Below are positions 1 through 16,413 of a stretch of DNA of 64,000 nt, in pieces; the stretch's first letter is position 1, and each line of letters starts with the position of its first letter. The notes under the pieces are model-generated. The model did not search any database. It was given only the letters and a program-made list of their open reading frames with translations, and was not told the DNA's origin. A program made the position numbers and the translations under genes. Origin of the DNA: Leptothrix sp. (in: b-proteobacteria) (lineage in GTDB: Bacteria; Pseudomonadota; Gammaproteobacteria; Burkholderiales; Burkholderiaceae_C); NCBI GenBank assembly GCA_013822685.1, contig PNKV01000013.1:13095-77094 (forward strand). Direction: 5' to 3'.

Positions 1-768
1 CGTGAGTTTGAGCTCCTGGGTCAAGGCCTCGATGGCGGCCTCATCCGAAGTCTCCCGCATCACCAGCAACCAGTTGTCGTCGCCGGTGGGTTCGTGCAGG
101 GCGAAGCTCAGGCGCCGACCACCTTGCTGCACCAGCCAGGATGGTGGCGGCTTGCCCGTGGCCATGTCGGCCAGGGCGCTGGGCGTGACCTGGCGCAGCC
201 ACACCACCAGCTCATCGGGGGCCACGGTCTCGGGCGTCTCGAAGTACTGCTGCAAGAGCTTGCGCGCCAAGGGCGTCTGCCACATCACGCGGCCATCAGA
301 AAGGCGCACCGTCATCGATGCGTGGCCAAAAGCGTCCAGGGCATTGCGGGCCTGGCGCGCCTGCCGGGCACTCGCCATGTGAGAGACGATGCGGGCCAGC
401 ACTTCCCGGGGCCGGATCGGCTTGGTGACGTAGTCCACGCCGCCAGCGTCGAAGGCGGCCACCACGTGCTCGGTCTCGGTCAGGCCCGTCATGAAGACGA
501 TGGGGATGTGGCTGGTTTCGGGCTGGGCTTTCAGGCGGCGCGCCACTTCGAAACCATCCATGCCGGGCATCAGGGCGTCGAGCAGGATGATGTCGGGCAC
601 GGACTGGCTGGCGCGCTGCAGAGCGGCTTCGCCATGCGTGGCGACCAGCACCGTGTAGCCGGCTTCGTCCAGCGCATCGTGCAAGAGCGAGAGGTTGTCG
701 GGCACGTCATCAACGATGAGCACGACGTCGGTGCGGCTGCGGTCGAGTCGGTCAAGCATCGGGATCAT
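1..768 (-). CDS. Response regulator (REC plus probable LuxR-type HTH), 3'-truncated by the window edge
   Basis: Manual translation from ATG 768: MIPMLDRLDRSRTDVVLIVDDVPDN...IILLDALMPGMDG...DYVTKP...EALTQELKLT. Start overlaps the kinase stop (ATGA). Absent from the ORF track because it has no stop in the window. The HTH itself lies beyond the edge and is inferred. Confidence 0.85.
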   Translation of the reverse strand, partial: MIPMLDRLDRSRTDVVLIVDDVPDNLSLLHDALDEAGYTVLVATHGEAALQRASQSVPDIILLDALMPGMDGFEVARRLKAQPETSHIPIVFMTGLTETEHVVAAFDAGGVDYVTKPIRPREVLARIVSHMASARQARQARNALDAFGHASMTVRLSDGRVMWQTPLARKLLQQYFETPETVAPDELVVWLRQVTPSALADMATGKPPPSWLVQQGGRRLSFALHEPTGDDNWLLVMRETSDEAAIEALTQELKLT

Positions 769-3700
769 GGCCGCGATTGTGCATGGAACTGCACCAACGC
801 CCGCTTGACGGCATCGGCCAAGGCGTCCAGCTGGAACTGCCTGGCCAGGTGGCGCATGTTTTGCACAAAGACTTCGCATTGCGGTTCGGCCGCCGCGATC
901 TGGTCCAGTGTTTTGTGCACACCGCGCACGTAGCCCGCGTCGATCAGCTCTTCCAGGCTTTGCAAGGCCTTGAGCGATGGCAGCACCTGCATGCCGTCGC
1001 CCGCCGCACTTTGCGCGACGGCGTCCAGCATGGGCTTGCCAATGGCGGGGCGCTGAGCCTCGATCCACTGCAAGGTCAGGCGCCGACCCAACCAATCCAG
1101 CAGTTCCGCCTTGCGCACGGGCTTGACGATGAAGTCTTCGAAGGTGATGCCCACGTCGTTGTCCATGCCCTTGTCAAAGGCGTTGGCCGACACGATCGCG
1201 ATCGGCGCGCGGCTCAGTCCTTCCTGCTTGATGGTGCGGATCGTGGCCCAGCCGTCGATGCCCGGCATGGCCAGGTCCATCAGCACCGCATGGGGCTCTT
1301 GCGCCTGCGGGCAACTGCGCAACAGGGCCAGGCACTCCAAACCTGACGCCAGCGGGGTGACATCAAAGCCCAAAGGCTCGAGGATGCGCACGAGCAGGCC
1401 ACGGTCGGCCTCTTCGTTGTCCACCACCCAGACCCGGCGGCGGTCGCCCACATAGCCGGTGCGCACGCCCAAGGGCACGCTGCGATCGGCGTGCGTGAGC
1501 CGCACCTGCGGCAGGAACAGGCGGATGCGGAACACCGTGCCCTGCCCCTCCACGCTGCTGACCTTCATCTCACCGCCCATCAGGTCGGTGAGCATTTTGC
1601 TGATGGTCAGCCCCAGGCCGGTGCCTGCGACGGCCGAGCCCGCCACCGATGAACCGCGCGCGAAGGGCTCGAAGACCCGCTCAAGTTCGTCAATCGGGAT
1701 GCCCGGCCCGGTGTCGATGACCTCGACCAAGGCAATCTCGCGCGCATAGCTGACGCGGAATTTCACCCCACCGTGCGCTGTGAACTTCACCGCGTTGCCC
1801 AACACATTGAACAGGATCTGACGCACGCGTCGCTCGTCGGCCCGCACCACCTCGGGCAAGGCCGCGTCCAGCTCCACGTCAAAGCTCAGGCCCTTGCTCA
1901 AGGCCTGAGGTTGCAGCATGTTGATGATCTGCTGCAGCGACTCGAACAGGCGCATGGGCTTGACGTCCAGCGTCAGCTTGCCGCTTTCTATGCGGGCGAT
2001 GTCCAGCGTGCCTTCAATCAAGGACAGCAAATGGTCGCCGCCACGCTTGATGACCTCCACCCCATGCCTGGCATGCTCGGGCAGGCGTTGATCCTCGTCC
2101 AGCAACTGCGCATAGCCCAGGATGCTGTTGAGCGGCGTGCGCAGCTCGTGGCTGATGGTCGAGATGTAGCGGCTCTTGGCCTGGTTAGCCTGCTCGGCAG
2201 TGCGCTTGGCCTGCTGCAGTTTTTCGTCAGTGCGCCGGTGCAGTTCCACCTCGCGCACCAGCAGGTGCGTCTGGCGGTTGGATTCTTCTTGCGCCACCTT
2301 GCGGCTCTTGTGCGCCAGCACCAGCCACCAACCCACCACCCCCGAGATCACCAACAGCACCGCAAACACCTTGAGGAAGCCGCTTTGCAGCGCATCGGTC
2401 AGGCCTGCTGTGGCCGGTTGGTCCAAAGCCCGCAACTCGTGGTTGAAGATCAGCGCGAACAGCAACGCCAGCGCGGGCACCAAGCCCCCCATCAACAGCA
2501 TGAAATGGCCAAGCTCGGTGTCCAGCCGTTGCCAGACAAAGGCCGGCAGCAGCTTCTTACCCACGGCCCGCCATTGCACCGACCAGCGTGCTTCAGGCTT
2601 GCACAAATCATGGCAGCGCGCATCCAGCGAACAGCACAGCGAGCAGATGAAGCCCTGGTAGGCCGGGCAATGCGCCATGTCCTCGCCTTCGTACTCGCGC
2701 TCGCACACCGTGCAGCGGTAGACGCCCTTGGTGCCTTGCCGGGACGGGCAGGTCTCGCAATTGGGTGCCTTGAGCTCGGCTTGGCGGGCGATGTAGTAAC
2801 GCCCCTGGGTGAACCAGGCGATCAGCGGCGAGGTGACCAGCGCCGTGACCAGTGCGATCAGTGCTGAGAAGGCCTGCGCCATCGGCCCCAGCCAGCCCAG
2901 GTAGGCCGTGACCGACAGGATGGACGCCGCGCTCATGGCACCCACGCCCACCGGGTTCACGTCATACAAATAAGCCCGCTTGAACTCGATGCCCTTGGGC
3001 GACCAACCCATGGGCTTGTTGATCACCAGGTCAGCCACCACGGCCATCATCCAGGCGATGGCAATGTTGGAGTACAGCCCCAGCACACGCCCCAGGGCCT
3101 GGAACACGTTCAACTCCATCAGCATCAAGGCGATCATGGTGTTGAACACCACCCAGACCACGCGCCCAGGGTGGCTGTGGGTGATGCGCGCGAAGAAGTT
3201 GGACCACGCCAGCGAGCCTGCGTAGGCGTTGGTGACATTGATCTTGAGCTGCGAGATGACCACGAACAGGCACGTGGCGGCCACCGCCCAGCTCAGGTTC
3301 GAGAACATGGACTCGTAGGCCAGCAGGTACATCTGATTGGGATCAACCGCGCGGTCGGCCGGCACCGACATACTCAGCGCCAGGTAGGCCAACACCGTGC
3401 CCCCCAGCATCTTGAGCACGCCGGGAATCACCCAGCCCGGCCCGCCCATGAACACGCTGAACCACCAGCGCGCCTTGTGCTGGGCTTGCCGCTCGGGCAT
3501 GAAGCGCAGGTAGTCGGCCTGCTCGCCCATTTGCGTGATCAGGGCCACGCCCACCGTCATGGCCGCGCCAAACGACATCAGGTTGAACCCCGGCGCCTGC
3601 CCTTGTGCACCGCCATAGCCCACCAGGTCGCTCAGCACATGCGGGTTCGCCTTGAACACGTAGATGTAAGGCAGCACCAGCATCACCAACCAGATCGGTT

Positions 3701-4328
3701 GCGTCCACACCTGCAATCGGCTGATGACGGTGACCCCGTGCGTGACCAGCGGCACCACCACCACCGCGCAAATCAAATAGCCCCAGGCGGGTGGGATGTC
3801 GAAGGCCAGCTCAAGGGCGTAGGCCATGATCGCGGCCTCCAGCGCGAAGAAGATGAAGGTGAAGGTGGCGTAGATCAGCGAGGTGATGGTGGAGCCGATG
3901 TAGCCAAAGCCCGCGCCGCGCGTCAGCAGGTCCATGTCCACGCCATGGCGCGCCGCGTACACACTGATCGGCCAACCGGCCAGGAGGATGATCAAACCCG
4001 TGGCCAGGATGGCCCACAAGGCGTTGATGAAGCCGTGCTCCACCATCAGGGTGGCGCCCACCGCTTCCAGCACCAAAAACGAGGCCGCGCCGAAGGCGGT
4101 GTTGGCCACCCGCCATTCGCTCCATTTGCGGAACGACCGGGGGGTGAAGCGCAGGGCGTAGTCTTCCAGGGTTTCGCTGCCAACCCAGGTGTTGTAGTCG
4201 CGCCGCACCTTGACGACGCGTTGCAAGGCCTGGTCTCCCAGCAAATCGGCCGAAGACGCCCCTCCGGCGGGCGGCAGCTCATCAATACGCCGTTCGGCGG
4301 CTGGACTCATTTGGCGTGTGTCTTGCAT
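765..4328 (-). CDS. Hybrid sensor histidine kinase with N-terminal NCS1/APC-like permease domain, Cys-rich linker, HisKA-HATPase and REC
   Basis: About 12 hydrophobic segments, then ISHELRTPLN (H box), NVLGNAVKFT, DTGPGI, GTGLGL and REC LMDLAMP...FIVKP. Start is 4328 or 4310 rather than the track's 4397. Confidence 0.9.
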   Translation of the reverse strand: MQDTRQMSPAAERRIDELPPAGGASSADLLGDQALQRVVKVRRDYNTWVGSETLEDYALRFTPRSFRKWSEWRVANTAFGAASFLVLEAVGATLMVEHGFINALWAILATGLIILLAGWPISVYAARHGVDMDLLTRGAGFGYIGSTITSLIYATFTFIFFALEAAIMAYALELAFDIPPAWGYLICAVVVVPLVTHGVTVISRLQVWTQPIWLVMLVLPYIYVFKANPHVLSDLVGYGGAQGQAPGFNLMSFGAAMTVGVALITQMGEQADYLRFMPERQAQHKARWWFSVFMGGPGWVIPGVLKMLGGTVLAYLALSMSVPADRAVDPNQMYLLAYESMFSNLSWAVAATCLFVVISQLKINVTNAYAGSLAWSNFFARITHSHPGRVVWVVFNTMIALMLMELNVFQALGRVLGLYSNIAIAWMMAVVADLVINKPMGWSPKGIEFKRAYLYDVNPVGVGAMSAASILSVTAYLGWLGPMAQAFSALIALVTALVTSPLIAWFTQGRYYIARQAELKAPNCETCPSRQGTKGVYRCTVCEREYEGEDMAHCPAYQGFICSLCCSLDARCHDLCKPEARWSVQWRAVGKKLLPAFVWQRLDTELGHFMLLMGGLVPALALLFALIFNHELRALDQPATAGLTDALQSGFLKVFAVLLVISGVVGWWLVLAHKSRKVAQEESNRQTHLLVREVELHRRTDEKLQQAKRTAEQANQAKSRYISTISHELRTPLNSILGYAQLLDEDQRLPEHARHGVEVIKRGGDHLLSLIEGTLDIARIESGKLTLDVKPMRLFESLQQIINMLQPQALSKGLSFDVELDAALPEVVRADERRVRQILFNVLGNAVKFTAHGGVKFRVSYAREIALVEVIDTGPGIPIDELERVFEPFARGSSVAGSAVAGTGLGLTISKMLTDLMGGEMKVSSVEGQGTVFRIRLFLPQVRLTHADRSVPLGVRTGYVGDRRRVWVVDNEEADRGLLVRILEPLGFDVTPLASGLECLALLRSCPQAQEPHAVLMDLAMPGIDGWATIRTIKQEGLSRAPIAIVSANAFDKGMDNDVGITFEDFIVKPVRKAELLDWLGRRLTLQWIEAQRPAIGKPMLDAVAQSAAGDGMQVLPSLKALQSLEELIDAGYVRGVHKTLDQIAAAEPQCEVFVQNMRHLARQFQLDALADAVKRALVQFHAQSRP
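4311..4327 (+). promoter_or_regulatory. Putative sigma54 promoter for ureA
   Basis: TTGGCGTGTGTCTTGCA, GG at 4313-14 and GC at 4325-26 (12-nt offset), about 55 nt before the ureA ATG. Confidence 0.65.
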
Positions 4329-4355: not shown

Positions 4356-4372
4356 CGCAATTTCGGTGCCGA
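4356..4372 (-). promoter_or_regulatory. Putative sigma54 promoter for the sensor kinase/response regulator operon
   Basis: Minus strand TCGGCACCGAAATTGCG, GG 4370-69 and GC 4358-57. Confidence 0.65.
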
Positions 4373-4381
4373 GAACAACAA

Positions 4382-4684
4382 ATGGAACTGACCCCACGAG
4401 AGAAAGACAAATTGCTGATCTTCACGGCCGCCCTGCTGGCCGAGCGGCGCAAGGCCCGGGGACTCAAGCTGAACTACCCGGAAGCCGTGGCCCTGATCAC
4501 CGCCGCCATCATGGAAGGGGCCCGCGACGGCAAAACCGTGGCCACCTTGATGAGCGAAGGCAAGACCGTGCTCAGCCGCCATGACGTCATGGACGGCGTG
4601 GCCGACATGGTGCCTGAAATCCAGGTGGAAGCGACCTTCCCGGATGGCACCAAATTGGTGACAGTGCACCAACCCATTGCTTGA
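4382..4684 (+). CDS. ureA: Urease subunit gamma
   Basis: [14 protein letters not shown]...KLNYPEAVA...[17 protein letters not shown]-type sequence. Confidence 0.98.
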
Positions 4685-4704
4685 GATGACTCATACATCT
4701 TGAA

Positions 4705-4723
4705 TTGCACCAATCAAGTGCAA
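4705..4723. promoter_or_regulatory. Putative NtrC-type binding site
   Basis: TTGCAC-CAATCAA-GTGCAA; TGCACCA-N3-AAGTGCA versus consensus TGCACCA-N3-TGGTGCA; lies in the AT-richer ureA-ureJ gap. Confidence 0.6.
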
Positions 4724-4759
4724 TCAAACTCATCCACGCCTCACCCTGGATTCAAGAAC

Positions 4760-5428
4760 ATGCCGAAAACCTCCTTCCGCCGCACCATCGTGGTTTGCGC
4801 TCCGTGGGCCGCCGGTCTGGCTGCGGCCACCCTGACCTCCGTGGCGCAGGCCCACGTGGGCGCCGATGGCCTGGCCCATCAGCATGGCGCCTTTGACAGC
4901 TTCACGGCGGGTGCGGCCCACCCCTTGACAGGGCTGGATCACCTGGCCGCCATGGTCAGCGTGGGCTTGTGGAGCGCCTTGAGCCTGCGCCCTCAATCAA
5001 CACCAGCCGCCAGCGCCAGGCAGCTGCTGGCCGCACCTCTGGCGTTTGCCGCCACCTTGCTGATCGGTGCCTTGATGGCGCTCAATGGCCTCACTTTGCC
5101 CGGTGTAGAACCCATGATCGCGGCCTCGCTGTTGGCCCTGGGGCTGCTGGTGGCCACGCGCACCGCATTGCCGACCGGCGTTGGCGCCGCCCTGGTGGCC
5201 GGTTTTGCCCTGTCCCACGGGTTGGCGCATGGCCAGGAGCTGGGGGGCCACGCCAGCGCCGCACTCACCGGCATGGTCCTGAGCACCATGGCCCTGCACT
5301 CCGTCGGCATCGGCTTCGGGCTGGCATTGCGCCAGCAACGCAGACGCTGGCTGCCGCGCATCGCGGGCGTCGGTGTCGCTGCCTTGGGCCTTGGCCTCTT
5401 GAGCCCCGCCATCGCTGGCGTGTTCTGA
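4760..5428 (+). CDS. ureJ: HupE/UreJ family Ni transporter/accessory protein
   Basis: Signal peptide, AH..., HPLTGLDHL and HGLAHG motifs. Confidence 0.92.
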
Positions 5429-5439
5429 GGAGCGCCACC

Positions 5440-5745
5440 ATGATCCCCGGCGAACTCCTCACCGATGGCCCCGACCACCCCCTCAACCCAGGCCGCCGCA
5501 CCACCACCCTGGTCGTTGAGAACTCGGGCGACCGCCCCATCCAGGTCGGCTCGCACTACCACTTTGCCGAGACCAATGGCGCCCTGAGCTTTGACCGCCC
5601 AGCCGCGCACGGCATGCGCCTGAACATCGCCTCCGGCACCGCCGTGCGCTTCGAGCCCGGCCAGCAGCGCACCGTCGAACTGGTCGATTACGCTGGCGAT
5701 CGCATCGTCCACGGATTCCGCGGCCTGGTTCAAGGCCCGCTCTGA
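5440..5745 (+). CDS. ureB: Urease subunit beta
   Basis: MIPGE...[17 protein letters not shown]...[18 protein letters not shown] (C-terminal part of track ORF 4969..5745). Confidence 0.97.
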
Positions 5746-5772
5746 CCACCCTTTGCCAAGGAAACCACCCAG

Positions 5773-7500
5773 ATGGCCACCATCCAACGGCGTGCCTACG
5801 CTGAAATGTTCGGCCCCACCGTGGGCGACCGCCTGCGCCTGGCCGACACCAACCTCATCATCGAAGTCGAACAAGACTTGACCCTGGCAGCTGGAGGCTA
5901 CGGAGAGGAAGTCAAGTTCGGCGGCGGCAAGACCATCCGCGACGGCATGGGCCAAAGCCAGCGCATCAATGGCCCTGGCCCGATGGAGGCCGCCGACTGC
6001 GTGTTGACCAACGCCCTCATCGTGGACCACTGGGGCATCGTCAAGGCCGACATCGGCATCAAGGCCAGCCGCATCTTCAAGATCGGCAAAGCGGGTAACC
6101 CCGATGTGCAACCCGGTGTGGACATCGTCATTGGCCCTGGCACCGAGATCATCGCGGCCGAGGGCATGATCGTGACGGCCGGCGGCATCGACACCCACAT
6201 CCACTTCATCTGCCCGCAGCAGATCGAAGAGGCGCTCAACAGTGGCGTGACAAGCATGCTGGGTGGCGGCACAGGGCCGGCCACCGGCACCTTCGCCACC
6301 ACGTGCACGCCCGGGCCGGACAACATCTCGCGCATGCTGCAAGCCGCCGAGGCCTTCCCGATGAACCTGGGCTTTCTGGGCAAGGGCAACGCCAGCCGCC
6401 CCGAGGCCTTGCGCCAGCAGGTCGAGGCCGGCGTGATCGGCTTGAAACTGCACGAGGACTGGGGCACCACGCCTTCGGCCATCGACTGTTGCCTGAGTGT
6501 GGCCGAGGAAACCGACACCCAGGTCTCGATCCACAGCGACACGCTGAACGAATCGGGCTTCGTCGAGAACACCATCGCGGCCACCAAGGACCGCACCTTG
6601 TGCGCCTTCCACACCGAAGGCGCGGGCGGTGGCCACGCGCCCGACATCATGCGCGTGGTGGGCGAGGCCAACTTCCTGCCCTCGTCCACCAACCCGACCA
6701 TGCCCTACACGGTCAACACCATTGACGAGCACCTCGACATGCTCATGGTGTGCCACCACCTTGATGCATCGATCGCCGAAGACCTGGCCTTCGCCGAAAG
6801 CCGCATCCGCCGCGAAACCATCGCCGCCGAAGACATCTTGCACGACCTGGGCGCCATCAGCATGTTCAGCTCCGACTCGCAGGCCATGGGCCGCGTCGGC
6901 GAAGTCATCATGCGCACCTGGCAGACGGCCCACAAGATGAAAGCGCAACGCGGCGCCCTGCCCGGCGACTCCGAGCGCAACGACAACACGCGGGTGAAGC
7001 GCTACGTCGCCAAGTACACGATCAACCCGGCTTTGTCGCATGGCATCGCGCACGAAGTGGGCAGCATTGAGGTGGGCAAGTGGGCCGACTTGGTGGTGTG
7101 GAAGCCCGGTTTCTTCGGCATCAAACCCAGCCTGATCCTCAAGGGCGGCTTCATTGCTTCAGCGGCCATGGGTGATCCGAGTGCGTCCATCCCCACGCCA
7201 CAGCCGGTGCATTACAGGCCCATGTTCGGCGCGTTTGGTGGTGCGCTGGCGCAGGGTTCACTGACCTTCATGAGCCAGGCTTCGATCGACGCGGGCATGC
7301 CCGGTCAATATGGTTTGAAGAAACAGGCCGTGGCCGTGCGCGGCAACCGCAGCGTGAAGAAGGCCGACATGATTCACAACCACTACCTGCCGGTGATGGA
7401 AATCGACGCGCAAACCTACCAAGTGCGCGCTGATGGGCAGTTGCTGACTTGTGAGCCAGCCACCGTGTTGCCGATGGCGCAGCGTTACTTTTTATTCTGA
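5773..7500 (+). CDS. ureC: Urease subunit alpha
   Basis: [39 protein letters not shown] and [12 protein letters not shown] all intact. Confidence 0.99.
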
Positions 7501-8265
7501 GCCGCTGAAGGACGAACTGCGTTTCAGCAGGTCCACCAGCTGCAAGGCATTGAAGGTCGCCGCGCCCAGCGCCGTGTTGTCGAAAACACACCAGACCGCT
7601 TCGAAGCGCTGGGCATCATCGTGCAGCCGGTGAGCCAGGGCTTGCAGGTAGGCCTCGTCGTAGTTGTCGTAATAGATCCGGGGCGAACCATGCAGGCGGT
7701 AGTAGGCCACCCGGGCAGAAGGCTGGTGGCCTGCGGCACCAGCCAAAGGCCAGGCCGCGCCAGCGCAAGGCGCCGGATCGGCCAGGACCAGATCGATGCG
7801 ATGCCGCGCCAGCAACGCTGCGCTTTGCTCACCAAACCAGCTTGCATGCCGGGGCTCGATCACCGCAGGCCCCTCGTGCCGTGCGCGGAGCATGCCGAAG
7901 AAACCCTCGGACCGGTCTGAATTGAAGGCCAGGCTGGGCGGCAATTGAACCAGGAGGCAGCCCAGCTTGGGGCCCAATTGCCCGGCTTCCAACAAGAAGG
8001 CCTCCAGCAGATCTTGGCAATCCGCCAGACGGCGCTCGTGCGTGATCGCCTTGGGCACCTTGACCGAGAACCGAAAATCTGCCGGCACGCTGGCCGCCCA
8101 CCGCGCGTACGTGGCCGGCTTGTGGGGCCGGTAAAAGCTGGAGTTGATCTCGACGCCTGAGAAACGGCTGGCATAGCGCTCAAGGTGGCTGCCCTCGGGC
8201 GCGAACAAATCCTGAGCCTCCTTGGGCAGGGCCCAGCCCGCACAGCCGATGCGGTATGGGCTCAT
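7492..8265 (-). CDS. DUF72 (YecE-like) protein
   Basis: [47 protein letters not shown] and CVFDN motifs; start MSPYRIG. Confidence 0.9.
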
Positions 8266-8266
8266 G

Positions 8267-9352
8267 TCAGCGCCCCTCGCCAGGCGGAAATACGATGAGG
8301 TGGTCCATCTCCAGACGCACGCCGATCGATTCGTCGAGCGCGTGGTCGTGGTGCGAAGGCACCAGCGACAGCACCTTGGCGCCGCTGGGCAACTCCAGGG
8401 TGTAGAGGATCTCGGCACCCCGGAAAGCCTTGTGCTTCACCAACGCCCGCACCGGGCTGGCATCGTCATGGACCACGTCATCGGGCCGCAATAACACCTC
8501 CACCTGGCTTCCAGGGGCACACGGTGCCAGGCTATCCGCGCGGCAAATCGGGCCGGGTGAGATCACATCCCCCAACTCGATGCTCAAGCATTGAGCATCA
8601 CGCACCTGGCCCGACACAAACACGCCCTGGCCGATGAAGTCGGCCACGAAACGACTGCGAGGCCGGTGGTACAGGTTGTAAGCCGTGTCGATCTGCTGGA
8701 TGCGCCCGTGGTCCATCACCACAATCTGATCGGCCATGGCAAAAGCCTCGTTCTGATCATGCGTGACGAACACCGCCGTGGTGCCCGTCGCTTTGAGCAC
8801 GCCACGCACCTCGGCGGCCAGTTGCTCGCGCAGGGCGACGTCCAGGTTGGAAAAAGGCTCGTCCAGCAACAGCAAGCGTGGCCGAGGGGCCAAGGCCCGC
8901 GCCAAGGCCACCCGCTGCTGCTGCCCGCCGGACAACTCATGCGGAAAGCGTTTGGCGGCCGAAGCCAAGCCCACCGTGTCCAGCCATTGCCGCGCCGTTT
9001 GAAGTGCTTCCGCCCCACCCCTCAAGCCAAAGGCCACATTGCGTTCCACGCTCAGGTGGGGAAACAAGGCGTAGTCCTGGAACACCATGCCGATGCGCCT
9101 GCGCTCAGGGGGCACATGCCGCCCCTGCCCACTGACCACATCGCCCTCGATGCTGATGGACCCCGCCGCCAGGCGCTCGAAGCCGCCCACGCACCGCAGC
9201 ACCGTGGTCTTGCCGCAGCCCGAGGGGCCCAGCAAACAGCAGATGTCTCCTGCAGCGACCGACAGGCTCAACTGCTCAATGGTGGGCCGGCCCTCATAGG
9301 CGTGCTGGATGCCCTGCAGTGCCAGCGATGGATGCGGTGGTGAATGATTCAT
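8267..9352 (-). CDS. fbpC: Fe3+-type ABC transporter ATP-binding protein
   Basis: GPSGCGKTT, LSGGQQQRVALARAL, LLLDEPFSNLD, VTHDQ, TOBE-like C-terminus. Confidence 0.9.
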   Translation of the reverse strand: MNHSPPHPSLALQGIQHAYEGRPTIEQLSLSVAAGDICCLLGPSGCGKTTVLRCVGGFERLAAGSISIEGDVVSGQGRHVPPERRRIGMVFQDYALFPHLSVERNVAFGLRGGAEALQTARQWLDTVGLASAAKRFPHELSGGQQQRVALARALAPRPRLLLLDEPFSNLDVALREQLAAEVRGVLKATGTTAVFVTHDQNEAFAMADQIVVMDHGRIQQIDTAYNLYHRPRSRFVADFIGQGVFVSGQVRDAQCLSIELGDVISPGPICRADSLAPCAPGSQVEVLLRPDDVVHDDASPVRALVKHKAFRGAEILYTLELPSGAKVLSLVPSHHDHALDESIGVRLEMDHLIVFPPGEGR

Positions 9353-9383
9353 ACAGGGCGGCACCTTACACTAGGCCGCATCC

Positions 9384-11033
9384 ATGATGTCCTCCTACTC
9401 CCACCGCATCCGACCCCGTGGGATGACCCTGTTCGCGCTGCTCATCGCTGTGGTCATGGTCATCCCGCTGCTGTCCGTGGCCACCAATGTGTTCAATGCG
9501 GGCACCACCGGCACCTGGACTCACCTGATGGACACGGTGATGCCCGACTACATCATCGCCACCGTGGTGTTGTGCCTGGGCGTGGGCATCGGCACGGCGC
9601 TGGTGGGCGTGGGCGCGGCCTGGCTGGTCACGCATTGCGAGTTTCCGGGGCGCCGCGTTTTTGAATGGGCCCTGGTGCTACCGCTGGCCATGCCGGCCTA
9701 TGTGATGGCTTATGCCTACACCGATGTCCTTCAGTTCTCCGGCCCCGTTCAAACCTGGCTTCGGGCCAGCCTGGGCTGGACCCGTGCCGACTACTGGTTC
9801 CCCGACGTCCGCACCCTGGCCGGGGCCATCTTCATGTTCATCGGGGTGCTGTACCCCTACGTGTACATGCTGACCCGAACCGCTTTTCTGGAAAGAGGCG
9901 GCGCCGTGACCGAAGCCGCCCGGTCTCTGGGCTTGAGCCCGTGGCAAAGCTTCATCAGGGTCTCGCTGCCGATTGCGCGCCCGGCCATCGCCGCCGGAAT
10001 GGCCTTGGCTTTGATGGAAACACTGGCCGACTACGGCACCGTTTCCTACTTTGCCGTTCAAACCTTCACCACCGGCATCTACCGGGCCTGGTTCTCATTG
10101 GGCGACCGCGTGGCTGCTACCCAGTTGGCGATGTGCCTGCTGGGCTTTGTGCTGGTGGTCTTGAGCATCGAGCAAAGCTCACGCGGACGGGCCCGCTTCC
10201 ACGGCACCGGCTTGCGCAAACCCTCGCGAGGCCACCGCCTGCGCCCCTGGCAATCGGGCTTGGCCGTGGTGGCCTGCCTGATCCCTCTGCTGGTCGGCTT
10301 CGTGCTGCCCGCAGGCGTGATGCTGCACATGGCCCTGACCGACGGCGATGCCCAGTTCGGCGCGCGCTTCCTGACCTTGGCGCGCAACAGTTTTATGGTC
10401 TCGGCCATGACGGCCATGCTGGCGGTGGCGCTGGCCCTCATCGTGGCTTATGCCAGGCGCCTGCACCCCACGCTTTGGACGGGCATGGCCCACAAAGCCG
10501 TGGGCATGGGCTATGCCCTGCCGGGGTCCGTGATCGCCGTGGGCGTTTTGATCCCGGTCACCCAACTGGACAACGCCCTGGTATCGGCCTTGAAGACCCA
10601 CCTGGGTTGGCAAGGCGGCTTGATCCTCACGGGCGGCATCGCCGCGCTGGTGTACGCCTGCCTGGTTCGCTTCCTGACCGCCGCCCTGCAAAACGTGGAC
10701 GCCGCCTTGCACCGGGTCACGCCCCACATGGACGACGCGGCGCGCAGCCTGGGGCTGTCCCCAGGCAAGACCTTGCTCAGGGTGCACCTGCCCCTGCTTC
10801 GGCGAGGCCTGCTGACCGCAGGGCTGCTTGTGTTCATCGATGTGATGAAGGAGTTGCCCGCCACACTGGTCATGCGGCCGTTCAACTTCGACACGCTGGC
10901 CACGCAGGTCTACAACCTGGCCTCGGACGAGCGATTGAGCGAAGCCTCCACCGCCGCCCTGGCCATCGTGGCGGTGGGCCTGGTGCCGCTCATCATCTTG
11001 TGTCGGCAGATTGCCGCCGAGCGGCAAGCTTGA
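9384..11033 (+). CDS. fbpB: Fe3+-type ABC transporter permease (two-repeat)
   Basis: LPLAMPAYVMAY, EAARSLG, LADYGTV, KELPATL.MRPFNFDTLA. Confidence 0.9.
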   Translation: MMSSYSHRIRPRGMTLFALLIAVVMVIPLLSVATNVFNAGTTGTWTHLMDTVMPDYIIATVVLCLGVGIGTALVGVGAAWLVTHCEFPGRRVFEWALVLPLAMPAYVMAYAYTDVLQFSGPVQTWLRASLGWTRADYWFPDVRTLAGAIFMFIGVLYPYVYMLTRTAFLERGGAVTEAARSLGLSPWQSFIRVSLPIARPAIAAGMALALMETLADYGTVSYFAVQTFTTGIYRAWFSLGDRVAATQLAMCLLGFVLVVLSIEQSSRGRARFHGTGLRKPSRGHRLRPWQSGLAVVACLIPLLVGFVLPAGVMLHMALTDGDAQFGARFLTLARNSFMVSAMTAMLAVALALIVAYARRLHPTLWTGMAHKAVGMGYALPGSVIAVGVLIPVTQLDNALVSALKTHLGWQGGLILTGGIAALVYACLVRFLTAALQNVDAALHRVTPHMDDAARSLGLSPGKTLLRVHLPLLRRGLLTAGLLVFIDVMKELPATLVMRPFNFDTLATQVYNLASDERLSEASTAALAIVAVGLVPLIILCRQIAAERQA

Positions 11034-11034
11034 T

Positions 11035-12060
11035 TCAGCGCCAGCCAGCGCGGTCGAACACCTTCTGAGCCAGCACCGCGTTGGCACCCAGTTGGCCCAC
11101 GGGCAGCGCATCAGCCTTGAAGGCCCCCAAGGACTCCAGCGCCGGGTTTTTGACCTTGGCCGAGCTGACCACGGGCCACTCGTTGTTGCCATCGGCAAAG
11201 TAAGCCTGGGCCTCATCGCTGCTCAGGTACTCCAGGAAACGAATGGCCGCGTCGCGGTTCGGCGCGGTCTTGATCACACCAGCGCCCGACACGTTGATAT
11301 GCGTGCCCCAGGACTTCTGGTTGGGCCAGGCCACGCCCAGGTCTTTGACCACCTGCAGATCTTCGGGCTTGCTGGAGCGCATGAGCCGCGCCAGGTAGTA
11401 GCTGTTTGAAATGGCCACGCCGCATTCGCCAGACGCCACCGCCTTGATCTGGTCGGTGTCTCCGCCCTTGGGCGAGCGGGCAAAGTTGGCCACCAGGCCC
11501 TTGGCCCAGGCTTCGGTCTTGGCCTCGCCCAGGTGAGCGATCATGGCCCCGCCGAGCGACAGGTTGTAGGGGTGCGAGCCCGAGCGCACGCAAACTTGCC
11601 CCTTCAAGCGCGGCAAGGCCAAGTCTTCATAGGTTTGAACCATGTCGGCCTTGATGGTGGCCTTGTTGTAGACGATCAAGCGGGCCCTGGTTGAAAACGC
11701 CACCCACGTCGGCGTGCGCAAAGTGGCTGGAATGCGGGCTTCCAGTACCTTGGATTGCCAGGGTTGAAACAGCCCGGCCTTGTCCGCGACCTCAAGGCGC
11801 GACGCATCCACCGTGATCAGCAGATCGGCCGGGCCATTGGCGCCCTCGTTTTTGATCCGCTCCAGCAACTCGTCTTCCTTGCCATCCAGGCGGTTGATCT
11901 TGATGCCGGTCTGCTTGGTGAAGTTGGCGTACATCGCCTCGTCGGTTTGATAGTGGCGGGCTGAGTAGATGTTGAGCACGCCGCCCGATTGAGCATGAGC
12001 ACTGACCACGGCGGCGCCTGCAAGCACCCCAGTTAAAACGGTTTTGACGAAGATGTTCAT
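11035..12060 (-). CDS. fbpA: Fe3+ ABC substrate-binding protein (FbpA/FutA type)
   Basis: Signal peptide, LNIYSARHY, ADLLITVDA, HPYNLSL, SNSYYLAR, NNEWPV. Confidence 0.9.
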   Translation of the reverse strand: MNIFVKTVLTGVLAGAAVVSAHAQSGGVLNIYSARHYQTDEAMYANFTKQTGIKINRLDGKEDELLERIKNEGANGPADLLITVDASRLEVADKAGLFQPWQSKVLEARIPATLRTPTWVAFSTRARLIVYNKATIKADMVQTYEDLALPRLKGQVCVRSGSHPYNLSLGGAMIAHLGEAKTEAWAKGLVANFARSPKGGDTDQIKAVASGECGVAISNSYYLARLMRSSKPEDLQVVKDLGVAWPNQKSWGTHINVSGAGVIKTAPNRDAAIRFLEYLSSDEAQAYFADGNNEWPVVSSAKVKNPALESLGAFKADALPVGQLGANAVLAQKVFDRAGWR

Positions 12061-12126: not shown

Positions 12127-12166
12127 TGGCTCGTGGGTGTCACGCTTTTTGCTTACCATTGAGCCC

Positions 12167-12766
12167 ATGCTGACCGTCAATAAACTCCTCCCTCAGGGCC
12201 AAGGCCTGGCCAACGCGCTGCTCAAGCGCGCCCACACCGTTGAACTCGACTGGGACGTTCGCCAGAAAAGCCGATTCGACGCCACCGACAGCGCCGGTCG
12301 GCAACTGGGCATCTTCCTGAGCCGGGGCACCGCCGTGCGCGGTGGCGACGTGCTGGTGGCCGAAGACGGCTCGCTGATCCGCGTCACCGCCAAGCCCCAG
12401 CCCGTGCTGGTGATCACGCCCTGCGCCGAGCAGGGCAAGGCTTTCGACCTGGTCCGCGCCGCCTACCACCTGGGCAACCGCCATGTGCAGATCGAGCTGC
12501 AGCCCGATCACCTGAAGATCGAGCCCGACCATGTGCTGGCCGACATGCTGCGCGCCATGCACCTCACCGTGGTCGAAGCCCACACCACCTTTGAACCTGA
12601 AGGCGGGGCCTATGCGGCTGGTGGCGGGCACGCTCATGGCCATGAAGGCCACGGCCATGCCGCCCCAGCCGCACCCGCGCGCGGCAAGCCTGTTGGCGTC
12701 GCCGTGAAATCCGCCGCAGCGCCGCACGTTCACGGCCCCGGCTGCAACCACGGCCACGATCACTGA
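12167..12766 (+). CDS. ureE: Urease accessory protein UreE
   Basis: [29 protein letters not shown], His-rich tail. Confidence 0.96.
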
Positions 12767-13521
12767 TGCCCAAGGTCTTGGCCGCCGCCGGGCCTTTGAG
12801 CGCCGCGGCCCGACTCCAGTTGATGTGGCTGGCCTCGCCCGCCTTGCCCGTGGGCGGTTTCAGCTACTCAGAAGTATTGGAAGCCGCTGTCGAATCAGGC
12901 CGGGTGACCAACGAGGCCACCGCCGGCGCCTGGCTGCGCGATCAATTGCACCTGAGCCTGGCCCGCGCCGACCTGGCCGTGGTGGCCAAGGCCCTGCCCG
13001 CCTGGCAGCGTCACGATCTGAGCCGCATCACCGAGCTCAACGACTGGGTGGCGCACACGCGCGAAACCACCGAGTTGAAACTGCAGGCCGAACAGATGGG
13101 CCGCTCGCTGGTGGAATGGTTGCGCAACCGGGGCGCCTCCGTGGCCCCTAACGATCCGCGCCTGGCCCAATGCGCCGGCTTGAAACCCGCGCCCACGTGG
13201 CCGGTGGCCTTCGCCTTGGCGGTGGCCCAGTGCCTGCCCGACAACCCCGGCAGCACGGCCCCTCACAGCCACATCGTCAAGGACACCTTGTTGAGCTTTG
13301 CCTTTGGCTGGGCCGAGAACATGGTGCAGGCCGCCATCAAGTCCGTTCCGCTGGGCCAAAGCGCCGGCCAACGCATCTTGCAAAGCCTGATTGACGAGAT
13401 CCCCGCGGCCATTGACCACGCGTGCGCCCTGCCCGACAGCGAGCGCCAGGCCTTCACACCCATGCTGGCCATCCTGAGCAGCCAGCATGAAACCCAATAC
13501 TCACGCCTATTCCGATCATGA
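12766..13521 (+). CDS. ureF: Urease accessory protein UreF
   Basis: [34 protein letters not shown]. Confidence 0.96.
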
Positions 13522-14165
13522 GCACCAACCTGCACAACATCCCCAACCGCACCAAGAAACTGCCCCCTCTGCGCGTAGGCGTGGGCGGCCCAGTTGGCTC
13601 CGGCAAGACCACCTTGGTTGAAATGCTCTGCAAGGGCATGCGCGACACCTACGACCTGGTCGTCGTCACCAACGACATCTACACCAAGGAAGACCAGCGC
13701 CTGCTGACCGTGGCCGGCGCGCTGGAGCCCGAGCGCATCATGGGCGTGGAAACCGGCGGCTGCCCGCACACCGCCATCCGCGAAGACGCCTCCATCAACC
13801 TGGAAGCCGTTGACCGCATGCTGGCCAAGTACCCCAACGCCGACATCGTTTTCATCGAATCAGGCGGTGACAACCTGGCCGCCACCTTCAGCCCGGAGTT
13901 GAGCGACCTGACCATCTATGTGATCGACGTGGCGGCGGGCGAGAAGATCCCGCGCAAAGGTGGCCCCGGCATCACCAAGAGCGATTTGTTCGTCATCAAC
14001 AAGACCGACCTGGCACCGCACGTGGGCGCCAATCTGGAGGTGATGGAGGCCGACACCAAACGCATGCGCCCGGCACGGCCTTTTGTGATGAGCAACCTGA
14101 AGACCAAGGCAGGGCTGGATGAAGTGATCGCTTTCATCCAAACCAAAGGCTTGCTCAAGAGCTGA
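13518..14165 (+). CDS. ureG: Urease accessory GTPase UreG
   Basis: [27 protein letters not shown]. Confidence 0.98.
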
Positions 14166-14260: not shown

Positions 14261-15055
14261 TCAGGTCTCACGCCCAAGTTCCATGTGACGGCTTTCGTCC
14301 TTCAAGGCCACACCAGAGACACTCAAACGTCGGGCTTCGCTCAACAGATGCACCAGCTTGCGGGCGGCAGTTTCATAAGCCAGGCCTGCTGGCCGCACGT
14401 TGGAAATGCAATTGCGCTCGGCGTCGGTTCGGCCTGGACGCGGCATCCAGGTCAAATACAGGCCCATGCTGTCGGGTGAACTGAGGCCTGGCCGTTCGCC
14501 GATCAGGATCACGACCAAGCGGGCACCCAGAAGCTCACCAATTTCATCAGCCACTGCCACGCGGCCTTGCTCGACGATGACCAAGGGGGCAATTGACCAT
14601 GAGGGCTGCTCGATTTCTACGGTGGGCAGCAACTCCAGCGCCATCTGAATGACTGGCGCCGCGTGGGTGCCCACCGCCAAGGCGGACAAGCCATCGGCCA
14701 CGACGAAAGCCAGGTCGTGTTGGCGCCGTGACGCAAGGGGTGATGAGGCCATCAAGGCTTGCCGTGACGGCGCATCCAGGCACCGACCCAAGTCTGGCCT
14801 TTTCAAATAGGCATCCCGGTCCGCCGCGGCACTGTGCAACACCATGGTCTCGTGGCCCAGCGTGGCCAAAGCGGCCTGCAGCGATGGAACATCCAAGGCC
14901 AGGTGCACAGCATCCCTCGCCTTTGCATGCGCCAGCTGAAACGCCAACTGCGGCGCAGTCGGCAAACTCACACCCGCCCGCCCCAGGGCAATGCGCGCTT
15001 GGGTAAACCGGCGCAGCGCCAGCCAAGGGTTGTGGGTGACCGGAGGCTGGCTCAT
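14261..15055 (-). CDS. eutC: Ethanolamine ammonia-lyase light chain
   Basis: T.ARIALGRAG, YLKRPDLGR, VADGLSA, IGERPGLSSPDSMG.Y, RNCISN. Confidence 0.95.
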   Translation of the reverse strand: MSQPPVTHNPWLALRRFTQARIALGRAGVSLPTAPQLAFQLAHAKARDAVHLALDVPSLQAALATLGHETMVLHSAAADRDAYLKRPDLGRCLDAPSRQALMASSPLASRRQHDLAFVVADGLSALAVGTHAAPVIQMALELLPTVEIEQPSWSIAPLVIVEQGRVAVADEIGELLGARLVVILIGERPGLSSPDSMGLYLTWMPRPGRTDAERNCISNVRPAGLAYETAARKLVHLLSEARRLSVSGVALKDESRHMELGRET

Positions 15056-16413
15056 GGCGCCCCCAGCAAGGCATGCTGAAAGCCAGGCGGCAACTCGTCC
15101 AAAAGCCTGAAGCCCGCGCCCTCACCCTGCATGATCTGCATGTGCTGCAGCCAGGTCTCGAACTCGGGCGCCGGCCGCAAGCCGAGCACACGGCGCACAT
15201 ACAGCGCATCGTGGAACGAGGTGCTCTGGTAGTTGAGCATGATGTCGTCCGAGCCAGGCACCCCCATCACAAAGGTGCAGCCCGCCGTGGCCAGCAAGGT
15301 GAGCAGCACGTCCATGTCGTCCTGGTCGGCTTCGGCATGGTTGGTGTAGCAAACGTCGCAGCCCATGGGCAAGCCCAGCAATTTGCCGCAAAAGTGGTCC
15401 TCCAGCCCGGCGCGGATGATCTGCTTGCCGTCGTAGAGGTACTCGGGGCCAATGAAGCCGACCACGGTGTTCACCAGCAAGGGCTTAAAGTGCCTTGCCA
15501 CCGCGTAGGCGCGTGCTTCACAGGTTTGCTGATCGACACCGTGGTGGCCGTTGGCCGACAAGGCGCTGCCTTGGCCGGTCTCGAAGTACATGACGTTGTT
15601 GCCCACAGTGCCGCGTTTCAAGGCGAGCGCGGCCTCGCGCGCCTGGCCCAGCAAAGCCAGGTCGATGCCAAAACTGCGGTTGGTGGCTTCGGTGCCGCCA
15701 ATGGACTGGAACACCAGGTCCACCGGCGCACCACGCTCCATGGCCGCCATGGTGTTGGTGACGTGGGTGAGCACGCAGGATTGGGTGGGAATGGCGTATT
15801 GGTCAATGAGCTCGGCCATCATCGTCACCAGTTTGATGACCTGAGGCACGTTGTCGGTGGCCGGGTTGATGCCGATCACCGCATCTCCGCTGCCATACAG
15901 CAAGCCGTCGATCAAGCTGGCCGCGATGCCACTGGCGTCGTCGGTGGGGTGATTGGGCTGCAGGCGGGTGGCCAGCCGGCCCGTCAAGCCGATGGTGTTG
16001 CGAAAAGCCGTGACCACCCGGCACTTCTGGCCTACCAGGATCAGATCCTGGTTGCGCATGATCTTGCAAACGGCCGCCGCCATCTCAGGCGTGATGCCGG
16101 GCGCCACGGCAGCCAAGGTGTCGCTGTCGGTCTCGTCTTGCAACAGCCAGTTCCGGAAATCTCCCACCGTGAGGTGCGAAATCGGCGCAAAGGCCTGGGC
16201 ATCGTGGGTGTCGATGATCAGGCGCGTGACCTCGTCGTCCTCATAGGGAATCAGCGCCTGGTTCAAGAAAGTGCGCAAGGGCAAATCGACCAAGGCCATC
16301 TGCGCCACCACCCGCTCTTGTGCCGATTGCGCGGCAATGCCCGCCAAAAAGTCACCCGATCGCGCGGGTGTGGCCTTGGCCATCAGGTCCTTGAGGTCAC
16401 GAAATGCAGTCAT
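15052..16413 (-). CDS. eutB: Ethanolamine ammonia-lyase heavy chain
   Basis: RLQPNHPTDD, YFETGQGSALS, NTVVGFIGPEYL, GCDVCYTNH, MLNYQSTSFHD. Confidence 0.96.
   Translation of the reverse strand: MTAFRDLKDLMAKATPARSGDFLAGIAAQSAQERVVAQMALVDLPLRTFLNQALIPYEDDEVTRLIIDTHDAQAFAPISHLTVGDFRNWLLQDETDSDTLAAVAPGITPEMAAAVCKIMRNQDLILVGQKCRVVTAFRNTIGLTGRLATRLQPNHPTDDASGIAASLIDGLLYGSGDAVIGINPATDNVPQVIKLVTMMAELIDQYAIPTQSCVLTHVTNTMAAMERGAPVDLVFQSIGGTEATNRSFGIDLALLGQAREAALALKRGTVGNNVMYFETGQGSALSANGHHGVDQQTCEARAYAVARHFKPLLVNTVVGFIGPEYLYDGKQIIRAGLEDHFCGKLLGLPMGCDVCYTNHAEADQDDMDVLLTLLATAGCTFVMGVPGSDDIMLNYQSTSFHDALYVRRVLGLRPAPEFETWLQHMQIMQGEGAGFRLLDELPPGFQHALLGAP

What the first reader, a model, noticed from the sequence alone, without database searches (positions are those of the whole stretch)
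1..4328. Transporter-fused ('transceptor') hybrid kinase and response regulator wired head-to-head with urease
Seen: a roughly 500-aa permease-like domain (NCS1/APC style) fused to a Cys-rich linker, two further TM helices, HisKA/HATPase and REC. It is translationally coupled (ATGA) to a REC-containing regulator and is divergent from ureA. Known: permease-kinase fusions (CbrA/CrbS-type) sense transported solutes. Inference: this pair senses urea or a related amide/purine catabolite and controls nitrogen scavenging. I know of no characterised ligand or regulon for this architecture.
Basis: partly seen in the sequence, partly recalled or inferred. Interest (0 to 1): 0.68.

Follow-up and report, generated by a model that had tools for sequence, protein, structure and literature searches.

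The report
Transporter-like urea/amide sensor kinase pair
A bacterial signalling kinase uses a whole nucleobase-transporter-like membrane domain plus an eight-cysteine module as its sensor. It sits back-to-back with the urease genes, and with its DNA-binding partner it most likely detects urea and switches on the urea-uptake operon, which makes an unstudied, widespread sensor family directly testable.

Summary
Window 765-4328 (-) encodes a 1187-aa hybrid histidine kinase. Its parts are a ~490-aa 12-helix membrane domain, a Cys-rich module with 8 invariant Cys, a 2-TM hairpin, HisKA, HATPase, REC and an unassigned tail. It overlaps by ATGA a REC-X-GerE (LuxR-type) regulator that runs off the window, and it is divergent from ureA-ureJ-ureBC.

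No Pfam, NCBIfam or PDB sequence model hits the membrane domain. An AlphaFold model (pLDDT 85.5) matches the NCS1 carriers Mhp1 and CodB best.

The family is large, and I found no paper that studies it. In Pseudomonadota it sits beside urtABCDE-urease or beside an amide ABC importer plus formamidase. This genome holds one copy of each kind. The ureA-divergent copies form one clade of Comamonadaceae/Sphaerotilaceae.

The regulator's likely operator, ATACGCCA-N2-TGGCGTAT, lies upstream of urtA, left of the window, not in the urease promoter. It is found upstream of urtA in 7 of 7 sensor-bearing relatives and in 0 of 4 sensor-less ones. ureA and the kinase gene are driven by conserved face-to-face sigma-54 promoters, probably under NtrC control.

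My reading is a urea-sensing two-component system that adds substrate control to nitrogen-limitation control. The ligand and the regulon are inferred, not shown. I rate it a new variant of a known kind (transporter-fused sensor kinases).

The parts
1..768 (-). Response regulator gene, cut by the window edge. The whole gene is at window -191..768 (319 aa): REC, an unassigned ~115-aa middle part, and a GerE/LuxR HTH.
   Evidence: Response_reg 8.5e-29; GerE 2.7e-14; ATGA overlap with the kinase stop
765..4328 (-). Hybrid sensor histidine kinase gene, 1187 aa from the ATG at 4328
2763..4220 (-). Sensor membrane domain (residues ~60-545): 12 helices, LeuT fold, closest to the NCS1 carriers Mhp1 and CodB. 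No curated HMM covers it.
   Evidence: no HMM hit; model and fold search; invariant polar residues such as GEQxDYLRF and SQxKINVTNAYxGSLAWSNFF
2598..2762 (-). Cys-rich cytoplasmic module (residues 546-600). Eight invariant Cys: C562, C565, C577, C585, C588, C589, C595, C599. Small beta-rich fold in the model; probably binds two metal ions.
   Evidence: weak, non-significant resemblance to a FYVE finger; no Pfam hit
2301..2516 (-). Two further transmembrane helices (residues 628-699) that lead into the coiled coil before HisKA
1980..2180 (-). HisKA dimerisation/phospho-acceptor domain (H-box SHELRTPLN)
   Evidence: 3e-18
1512..1838 (-). HATPase_c catalytic domain
   Evidence: 2.1e-26
1095..1433 (-). 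Receiver (REC) domain of the hybrid kinase
   Evidence: 6.2e-15
768..1094 (-). C-terminal ~110-aa tail of unknown type. It is not an Hpt by HMM, and its His is not conserved in distant homologues.
   Evidence: 28-61% identity among orthologues
4312..4327 (+). Sigma-54 -24/-12 element TGGCGTGTGTCTTGCA pointing at ureA. Its -12 TTGCAT overlaps the kinase start codon.
   Evidence: It is conserved at the DNA level in other Aquabacterium species and in most of 63 gaps; chance gives a score of 10 or more in 1.7% of 200-nt windows.
4356..4371 (-). Sigma-54 -24/-12 element CGGCACCGAAATTGCG pointing at the kinase gene
4646..4722 (.). Three NtrC-like half-palindromes: 4646 GGCACCAAATTGGTGAC, 4665 TGCACCAACCCATTGCT and 4706 TGCACCAATCAAGTGCA. 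The last has 1 mismatch to TGCACC-N5-GGTGCA. Candidate enhancer for the sigma-54 promoters.
   Evidence: consensus from my own knowledge of NtrC sites; conservation in relatives not tested
4285..4302 (.). Weak copy (12 of 14) of the operator palindrome, ATACGCCGTTCGGCGGCT, inside the kinase 5' coding region. It is conserved only in the three nearest relatives, so its function is doubtful.
4382..7500 (+). Divergent urease operon: ureA 4382-4684, ureJ/hupE 4700-5428, ureB 5437-5745, ureC 5773-7500

Best explanation
This is the urea branch of a widespread, uncharacterised two-component family.

**Sensor.** The sensing unit is a LeuT-fold, NCS1-like 12-helix membrane domain welded to a cytoplasmic eight-cysteine (probably two-metal) module and a 2-TM hairpin.

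**Proposed mechanism.**
1. Urea binds in the polar central pocket of the transporter-like domain. It may or may not be translocated.
2. The resulting carrier-type conformational change passes through helix 12, the Cys8 module and the hairpin to the HisKA dimer.
3. The phosphoryl group goes to the REC-X-GerE regulator. The kinase's own REC domain acts as a relay or sink, since there is no Hpt.
4. The phosphorylated regulator binds the palindrome ATACGCCA-N2-TGGCGTAT about 55-80 bp upstream of urtA. This switches on the high-affinity urea ABC importer.
5. The urease operon and the kinase/regulator operon themselves start from two face-to-face sigma-54 promoters in the 53-bp gap. These are most likely fired by NtrC under nitrogen limitation.

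The locus would therefore combine 'nitrogen is scarce' with 'urea is there'.

**Shown:** the domain anatomy, the fold similarity, the conserved synteny, the conserved promoters and palindrome, and the co-occurrence of the palindrome with the sensor.

**Inferred:** the ligand, the sign of regulation, the pairing of regulator with operator, the role of NtrC, and whether the domain transports.
For: **Anatomy.**

**Fold.** The AF2 model has pLDDT 85.5. Foldseek's top five hits are Mhp1 and CodB.

**Portable sensor module.** The membrane domain and the Cys8 motif always occur together (67 representatives). They are fused to different outputs: of 41 representatives, 33 are kinases, 5 carry GGDEF-EAL and 3 carry SpoIIE.

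**Synteny.**
- 62 of 80 loci have ureA divergent from the sensor, and 70 of 80 have the regulator after it.
- 43 of 401 Pseudomonadota genomes carry the module.
- 13 of 20 extended loci lie beside an SBP-ABC-formamidase operon, and 6 of 20 beside urt-ure.
- The own genome has a second copy beside a formamidase operon, with its own regulator.
- The ureA-divergent sensors form one 100/100 clade.

**Operator.**
- The only perfect genome-wide hit is at window -2727, upstream of urtA.
- Of 41 stringent hits in 1.72 Mb of loci, 25 lie within 400 bp upstream of urtA/SBP (19), fmdA (2) or the sensor gene (4). Most of the rest lie at the extrapolated SBP start or where the locus ends before urtA.
- The urea type reads ATACGCC, the formamidase type ATACGTC.
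- Upstream of urtA the palindrome scores 12 of 14 or better in 7 of 7 sensor-bearing relatives, even where urtA lies megabases from the sensor. It scores 9-10 of 14, which is background, in 4 of 4 sensor-less relatives.

**Sigma-54 motifs.** They occur on both strands in most of 63 gaps, against 1.7% expected by chance.
Against: - No experiment exists and no ligand was tested.
- The membrane domain fails every curated NCS1 HMM, so a binding pocket cannot be transferred from Mhp1 or CodB.
- Residues that separate the urease-linked clade from the formamidase-linked clade are few and conservative. The urt-ure-linked sensors of other classes carry the formamidase-type residues, so sequence does not show urea specificity.
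- Members outside Pseudomonadota (cyanobacteria, Polyangium, an actinomycete MAG) are orphans without urea or amide genes nearby.
- The urease promoter next to the sensor has no conserved operator in this lineage.
- The kinase lacks an Hpt, so the phosphotransfer route is uncertain.
Confidence: 0.62

Rival explanations
1. The membrane domain is a working urea/amide permease as well as a sensor (a true transceptor). The kinase would then read transport flux rather than simple occupancy.
For: - The domain is a complete LeuT-fold carrier.
- It is at least as conserved as the catalytic core: 77-83% against 57-70% for HATPase.
- Kinase-less forms of 545-560 aa with the same Cys8 tail exist. Earlier scan notes report one inside a formamidase operon; I did not check that.
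Against: - Each locus already has a high-affinity ABC importer for the same substrates.
- No Na+/H+ site could be assessed.
- The genomic context of the one kinase-less form I looked up (P0328) is uninformative.
Confidence: 0.3
2. The sensor detects something other than the substrate. Candidates are the shared product ammonium, pH, a cyclic ureide or nucleobase as in true NCS1 carriers, or nickel/redox through the Cys8 module. It would tune nitrogen scavenging in general.
For: - Both enzyme systems beside the family release ammonia.
- The closest structural relatives carry hydantoins and cytosine.
- The eight invariant Cys could bind a metal, and urease needs Ni; ureJ/hupE is next door.
Against: - Two paralogues in one genome, each with its own regulator and its own operator variant next to a different hydrolase, argue for substrate-specific signals rather than a shared product.
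- The Cys8 module is equally invariant in formamidase-linked copies and in orphan copies, which have no nickel enzyme nearby.
- No allantoin or nucleobase genes are linked in any locus examined.
Confidence: 0.15
3. The head-to-head position with ureA is only a neighbourhood effect. The pair controls urtABCDE, and urease is controlled solely by NtrC/sigma-54.
For: - The conserved operator lies at urtA, not in the ureA gap in Aquabacterium.
- Sigma-54 promoters serve ureA and the kinase gene.
Against: - The divergent ureA arrangement is kept throughout a whole clade (62 of 80 loci, one 100/100 clade).
- Some lineages (Polaromonas and others) do carry 11-12 of 14 palindrome matches in the ureA gap: 10 of 63 against 15 of 1260 in background windows.
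Confidence: 0.45

Closest known systems
CrbS/CrbR (MxtR/ErdR) and CbrA/CbrB: SLC5-fused sensor kinases of Vibrio and Pseudomonas
   Same: A complete secondary-transporter-like membrane domain serves as the input of a histidine kinase. CrbS is likewise a hybrid kinase (HisKA-HATPase-REC, no Hpt) paired with a LuxR-type REC-HTH regulator that switches on genes for using a small carbon/nitrogen compound. This comparison rests on my own knowledge of the family.
   Different: The membrane domain here is NCS1-like, not SLC5/SSS: no PF00474 hit and no STAC hit. It is followed by an invariant Cys8 module and an extra 2-TM hairpin, which those kinases lack. It is linked to urea and amide genes rather than to acetate or histidine.
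NCS1 carriers Mhp1 (hydantoin) and CodB (cytosine), Pfam PF02133
   Same: They are the best structural matches (Foldseek E 2e-9 to 6e-8, TM-score on target 0.68-0.76). They share the 12-helix LeuT fold with a broken helix 1. A DYLRF motif recalls the NCS1 D-[YF]-S-R-[YF] signature (my recollection, not tested).
   Different: Identity is only 16-18%. PF02133 does not hit at any threshold, and a profile search of PDB sequences finds nothing. The domain is fused to signalling outputs. Its likely ligands are acyclic urea and formamide.
Known urea/amide regulators: UreR (AraC type, Proteus/Providencia), AmiC/AmiR (Pseudomonas amidase), FmdB (Methylophilus), NtrC/NAC control of urease
   Same: They share the physiological job of switching on urea or short-amide use. 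The NtrC/sigma-54 layer seems to be present here too.
   Different: The protein kinds are unrelated. None of them is a membrane two-component sensor. Here the signal would be read at the membrane by a carrier-like domain.

Membership tests
NCS1 nucleobase:cation symporter family (Pfam PF02133 Transp_cyt_pur) | Sequence match to the family HMM above its gathering score | tested here: not met
   No Pfam hit for the domain at E up to 10. PF02133 finds nothing in this genome or in 12 relatives, although control genomes ring. None of 41 diverse homologues hits any transporter family.
NCS1 nucleobase:cation symporter family (Pfam PF02133 Transp_cyt_pur) | 12-helix LeuT fold closest to solved NCS1 structures | tested here: met
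   AF2 model pLDDT 85.5. Foldseek's top five are Mhp1 (2jln, 4d1a, 2x79) and CodB (7qoa), ahead of Nramp, SSS, APC and NSS carriers.
NCS1 nucleobase:cation symporter family (Pfam PF02133 Transp_cyt_pur) | Cation-coupled transport of a nucleobase or ureide; conserved substrate and Na+ site residues | not testable with these tools
Transport needs an assay.
SLC5/STAC transporter-fused sensor kinases (CbrA, CrbS/MxtR) | SSS (PF00474) membrane domain followed by a STAC domain | tested here: not met
   Pfam gives only HisKA, HATPase_c and Response_reg. The fold search ranks SSS carriers well below NCS1.
SLC5/STAC transporter-fused sensor kinases (CbrA, CrbS/MxtR) | Transporter-like input + HisKA/HATPase (+REC) with a cognate regulator encoded next to it | tested here: met
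Hybrid histidine kinase (HisKA type) | HisKA with H-box, HATPase_c and a receiver domain with its acceptor Asp, all above curated cut-offs | tested here: met
   H-box SHELRTPLN, REC motifs VVDN...LMDLAMPGIDG...VKPV are read. No Hpt.
NarL/FixJ-type response regulator | REC domain plus C-terminal GerE/LuxR helix-turn-helix | tested here: met
   (Response_reg 100 bits, GerE 53 bits). An extra ~115-aa middle part has no family.
Sigma-54 (RpoN) dependent promoter | GG-N10-GC with TGGCAC/TTGCW flanks at the right distance from the gene, conserved in orthologous regions | tested here: met
   Dependence on RpoN or NtrC itself was not tested.

The most novel reading that the evidence does not exclude
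The NCS1-like domain plus the Cys8 finger is a dedicated, portable membrane receptor for urea and the smallest amides. It would be the missing urea sensor of many Proteobacteria, and evolution has plugged it into kinases, c-di-GMP enzymes and PP2C phosphatases. This clade reads urea, its sister paralogue in the same cell reads formamide, and each has its own operator variant (ATACGCC versus ATACGTC).
Probability: 0.4. Interest if true: 0.8.

Novelty: new variant of a known kind. Interest (0 to 1): 0.6.

Why it matters
Urea is a major nitrogen source in soil, water and hosts. Apart from UreR in a few enterics and general NtrC/NAC control, how free-living Proteobacteria detect it is not known. 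This family is present in about a tenth of sampled Pseudomonadota genomes, and also in cyanobacteria and myxobacteria.

It offers a concrete candidate receptor, a cognate regulator and a predicted operator, so the question can be tested with simple genetics and binding assays. It would also add a second, structurally different class (NCS1-like plus a metal finger) to the transporter-derived sensor kinases. And it would give Pfam/InterPro at least two unmodelled domains: the membrane module and the Cys8 module.

Tried and rejected
1. **HMM and sequence searches of the membrane domain.** Pfam, NCBIfam, PDB by single sequence and PDB by profile gave nothing.
2. **Single-sequence AlphaFold run.** It was useless (pLDDT 42) and cost one of two jobs. 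The alignment-based run worked.
3. **'N-domain far more conserved than the kinase'.** I drew this, but it was an artefact of my coverage filter. Per-domain global alignments show 77-83% for the N-domain, against 74-91% for HisKA, 57-70% for HATPase and 59-79% for REC.
4. **Specificity-determining residues.** Comparing the urease-linked and formamidase-linked clades gave 11 positions, all conservative, and they are not shared by urt-ure-linked sensors of other classes. The result is inconclusive.
5. **Genome-wide pattern count of the palindrome with 1 mismatch.** Control counts were similar, so it was too noisy. I replaced it with a targeted scan upstream of urtA orthologues.
6. **Operator in the ureA gap.** It is not conserved in Aquabacterium. 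The 12-of-14 site at 4285 is kept only in near-identical relatives.
7. **Context of cyanobacterial, myxobacterial, actinomycete and kinase-less members.** It was uninformative.
8. **Literature.** Seven searches found only genome papers that list the gene pair next to urt or fmd genes without study (D. aromatica, PMC2907700; E. guguanensis, PMC13296017).

Full report
**What is there.** The window comes from an Aquabacterium genome. It maps to contig C13:13095-77094 and is 99% identical to Aquabacterium sp. CECT 9606. On the minus strand, 765-4328 encodes a 1187-aa protein. The ORF is open from 4397, and the ATG at 4328 is the likely start.

Pfam finds HisKA (residues 740-806), HATPase_c (854-962) and a receiver domain (989-1101), all above curated cut-offs. 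Ahead of them lie four further parts:
- a ~490-aa polytopic region;
- ten cysteines between residues 547 and 599;
- two more hydrophobic helices at 628-699;
- a ~110-aa C-terminal tail with no family match.

The stop codon overlaps the next start as ATGA. That next gene runs off the window. Read from the genome, it is a 319-aa response regulator made of REC, an unassigned middle part and a GerE/LuxR HTH. On the plus strand, 53 bp from the kinase start, lie ureA, ureJ/hupE, ureB and ureC. To the left of the window, on the same strand as the kinase, come a FapA/DUF342 gene and then urtABCDE. One plus-strand gene lies between them.

**Is the membrane domain a permease?** No curated model says so. 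Pfam and NCBIfam give nothing at E up to 10. PDB sequences give nothing with the single sequence or with a 16-sequence profile. PF02133, the NCS1 model, finds nothing in this genome. Public annotations nevertheless call fragments of it 'purine-cytosine permease family'.

A single-sequence AlphaFold run failed (pLDDT 42). A run on 127 homologues gave pLDDT 85.5 and pTM 0.84, with a broken first helix and 12 core helices. Foldseek against the PDB ranks Mhp1 (three conformations) and CodB first, at E 2e-9 to 6e-8, TM-score on target 0.68-0.76 and 16-18% identity. Nramp, SSS, APC and NSS carriers follow. By sequence the domain is a separate, unmodelled family.

**The sensor is a module.** In 67 of 150 50%-identity representatives that cover the end of the domain, the same motif follows with fixed spacing: CxxC-x11-C-x7-CxxCC-x5-C-x3-C. 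All eight Cys are invariant in alignments of 16, 41 and 127 sequences. The model shows this motif as a small beta-rich unit. It has no Pfam family, and its resemblance to a FYVE finger is not significant.

The pair of domains is joined to different outputs. Among 41 diverse representatives, 33 have a kinase ATPase domain, 28 have REC, 5 have GGDEF-EAL, 3 have a SpoIIE phosphatase and 5 have Hpt. Kinase-less forms of about 550 aa also exist. The module is common:
- about 5,500-6,100 hits among the candidates scored in two searches;
- 1,715 representatives;
- 43 of 401 sampled Pseudomonadota genomes;
- many cyanobacteria, a Polyangium and an actinomycete MAG.

**Gene neighbourhood.** Among 80 Burkholderiales loci, ureA lies divergently next to the sensor in 62 and the regulator follows in 70. 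Many of the misses are short contigs. I then examined 20 extended loci across Pseudomonadota:

| Neighbourhood | Loci |
|---|---|
| UrtA/FmdD-like binding protein, two permeases, two ATPases and a formamidase | 13 |
| urtABCDE-ureABCEFG | 6 |
| Contig end | 1 |

All 19 loci that are not cut by a contig end carry a REC-GerE regulator after the kinase.

This genome holds a second copy at C1:320153-323623. That copy has its own 205-aa REC-GerE regulator and is divergent from exactly such a formamidase operon.

A maximum-likelihood tree puts all ureA-divergent sensors in one 100/100 clade of Sphaerotilaceae/Comamonadaceae. Its sister is the Burkholderiales formamidase-type clade, which contains the paralogue. 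The urt-ure-linked sensors of other classes are interleaved with formamidase-linked ones. Outside Pseudomonadota the members I looked up are orphans.

**What does the regulator bind?** The gaps between sensor and binding-protein genes share a palindrome. Formamidase-type loci have ATACGTCA-N2/3-TGACGTAT, and urea-type loci have ATACGCCA-N2-TGGCGTAT.
- In this genome the only perfect copy is at window -2727, about 55-80 bp upstream of urtA.
- A stringent scan of 1.72 Mb of loci gave 41 hits. Of these, 25 lie within 400 bp upstream of urtA/SBP (19), fmdA (2) or the sensor gene (4). Most of the rest lie at the extrapolated SBP start or where the locus ends before urtA.
- A noisy genome-wide count was replaced by a targeted test. 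Upstream of urtA orthologues the best palindrome scores 12-14 of 14 in 7 of 7 sensor-bearing genomes of the family, including one where urtA lies 3 Mb from the sensor. It scores 9-10 of 14 in 4 of 4 sensor-less ones. Random windows give 8-10.

The ureA gap of Aquabacterium has no conserved copy. The 12-of-14 site at 4285-4302 is kept only in near-identical relatives. Some other genera have 11-12 of 14 there.

**Promoters of the gap.** On the plus strand TGGCGTGTGTCTTGCA (4312-4327) points at ureA. On the minus strand CGGCACCGAAATTGCG (4356-4371) points at the kinase gene. GG-N10-GC elements of this quality occur on both strands in most of 63 orthologous gaps across genera, against 1.7% of random 200-nt windows at score 10 or more.

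The first codons of the kinase (ATGCAAGAC...) are conserved at the DNA level among Aquabacterium species because they form the -12 region of the ureA promoter. Three NtrC-like sites lie at 4646-4722, the best being TGCACCAATCAAGTGCA. A LuxR-type regulator cannot activate sigma-54, so these promoters most likely answer to NtrC. That is an inference.

**Mechanism proposed.** Nitrogen limitation, acting through NtrC and sigma-54, turns on urease and the sensor pair. Urea is bound, and perhaps carried, by the NCS1-like domain. That changes the domain's conformation, and the change passes through the Cys8 module and the hairpin to the kinase. The phosphorylated regulator binds the urtA operator and induces high-affinity uptake. 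The paralogue does the same for formamide.

The ligand, the sign of regulation and the phosphotransfer route (there is no Hpt) are inferred. Clade-specific residues are few and conservative, and they do not settle specificity.

**Comparison and novelty.** Functionally the closest systems are the SLC5-fused kinases CrbS/CrbR and CbrA. The membrane fold, the Cys8 module and the extra hairpin differ, and the SSS/STAC features are absent. Structurally the closest are Mhp1 and CodB, but HMM membership fails.

Seven literature searches found no study of the family. Two genome papers list the gene pair beside urt or fmd genes (PMC2907700; PMC13296017).

Earlier notes of this scan on other genomes reach the same reading. 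I read them only after finding the paralogue and the palindrome, and I do not count them as independent evidence.

I rate it a new variant of a known kind, with moderate to high interest.

Noticed in passing
G000 contig C1:319561-330062 (outside the window): Paralogous system: a 1156-aa sensor kinase with the same membrane+Cys8 module and a 205-aa REC-GerE regulator. It is divergent from an UrtA/FmdD-like binding protein, two permeases, two ATPases and a 409-aa formamidase. The gap holds GAATACGTCATTCAACGTAGG.
   Followed up: yes
window -2727..-2710 (C13:10367-10384), left of the window: Perfect palindrome ATACGCCATGTGGCGTAT between urtA and a divergent spermidine-synthase-like gene. It is the only perfect copy in the genome and the candidate operator of the regulator.
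   Followed up: yes
window -1927..-326 (left of the window): A 533-aa FapA/DUF342 protein (FapA_N + FapA beta-solenoid) is encoded directly after the regulator. It is found there in only 5 of 80 related loci, and its role is unknown.
   Followed up: partly
window 7492-12060 and 12137-14165: The urease cluster is split. ureABC(J) and ureEFG are separated by a DUF72 gene and an Fe(3+)-type ABC transporter. ureD is on another contig (C2:2806-3426).
   Followed up: partly
window 768-1094 (kinase tail) and regulator residues ~130-250: Two further segments without any Pfam family: the ~110-aa tail after the kinase REC domain (28-61% identity among orthologues, His not conserved, so not an Hpt), and the ~115-aa insert between REC and GerE of the regulator. 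The paralogue's regulator lacks this insert.
   Followed up: partly
window 14261-16413: The ethanolamine ammonia-lyase genes eutC and eutB (read from the translations only) lie just beyond ureG on the minus strand. This is another nitrogen-scavenging function in the neighbourhood.
   Followed up: no
L016 (Aquabacterium MAG), kinase ORF: The orthologous kinase frame ends after 753 aa in this MAG. It is either a frameshift/assembly error or a truncated copy.
   Followed up: no
G159 C1:1656940 and 1662774; G055 C8:63939: ATACGCCAGATGGTGTAT occurs twice within 6 kb in one sensor-less Burkholderiales genome and once in another, near REC-domain genes. It may be an operator of a related LuxR-type regulator.
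   Followed up: no
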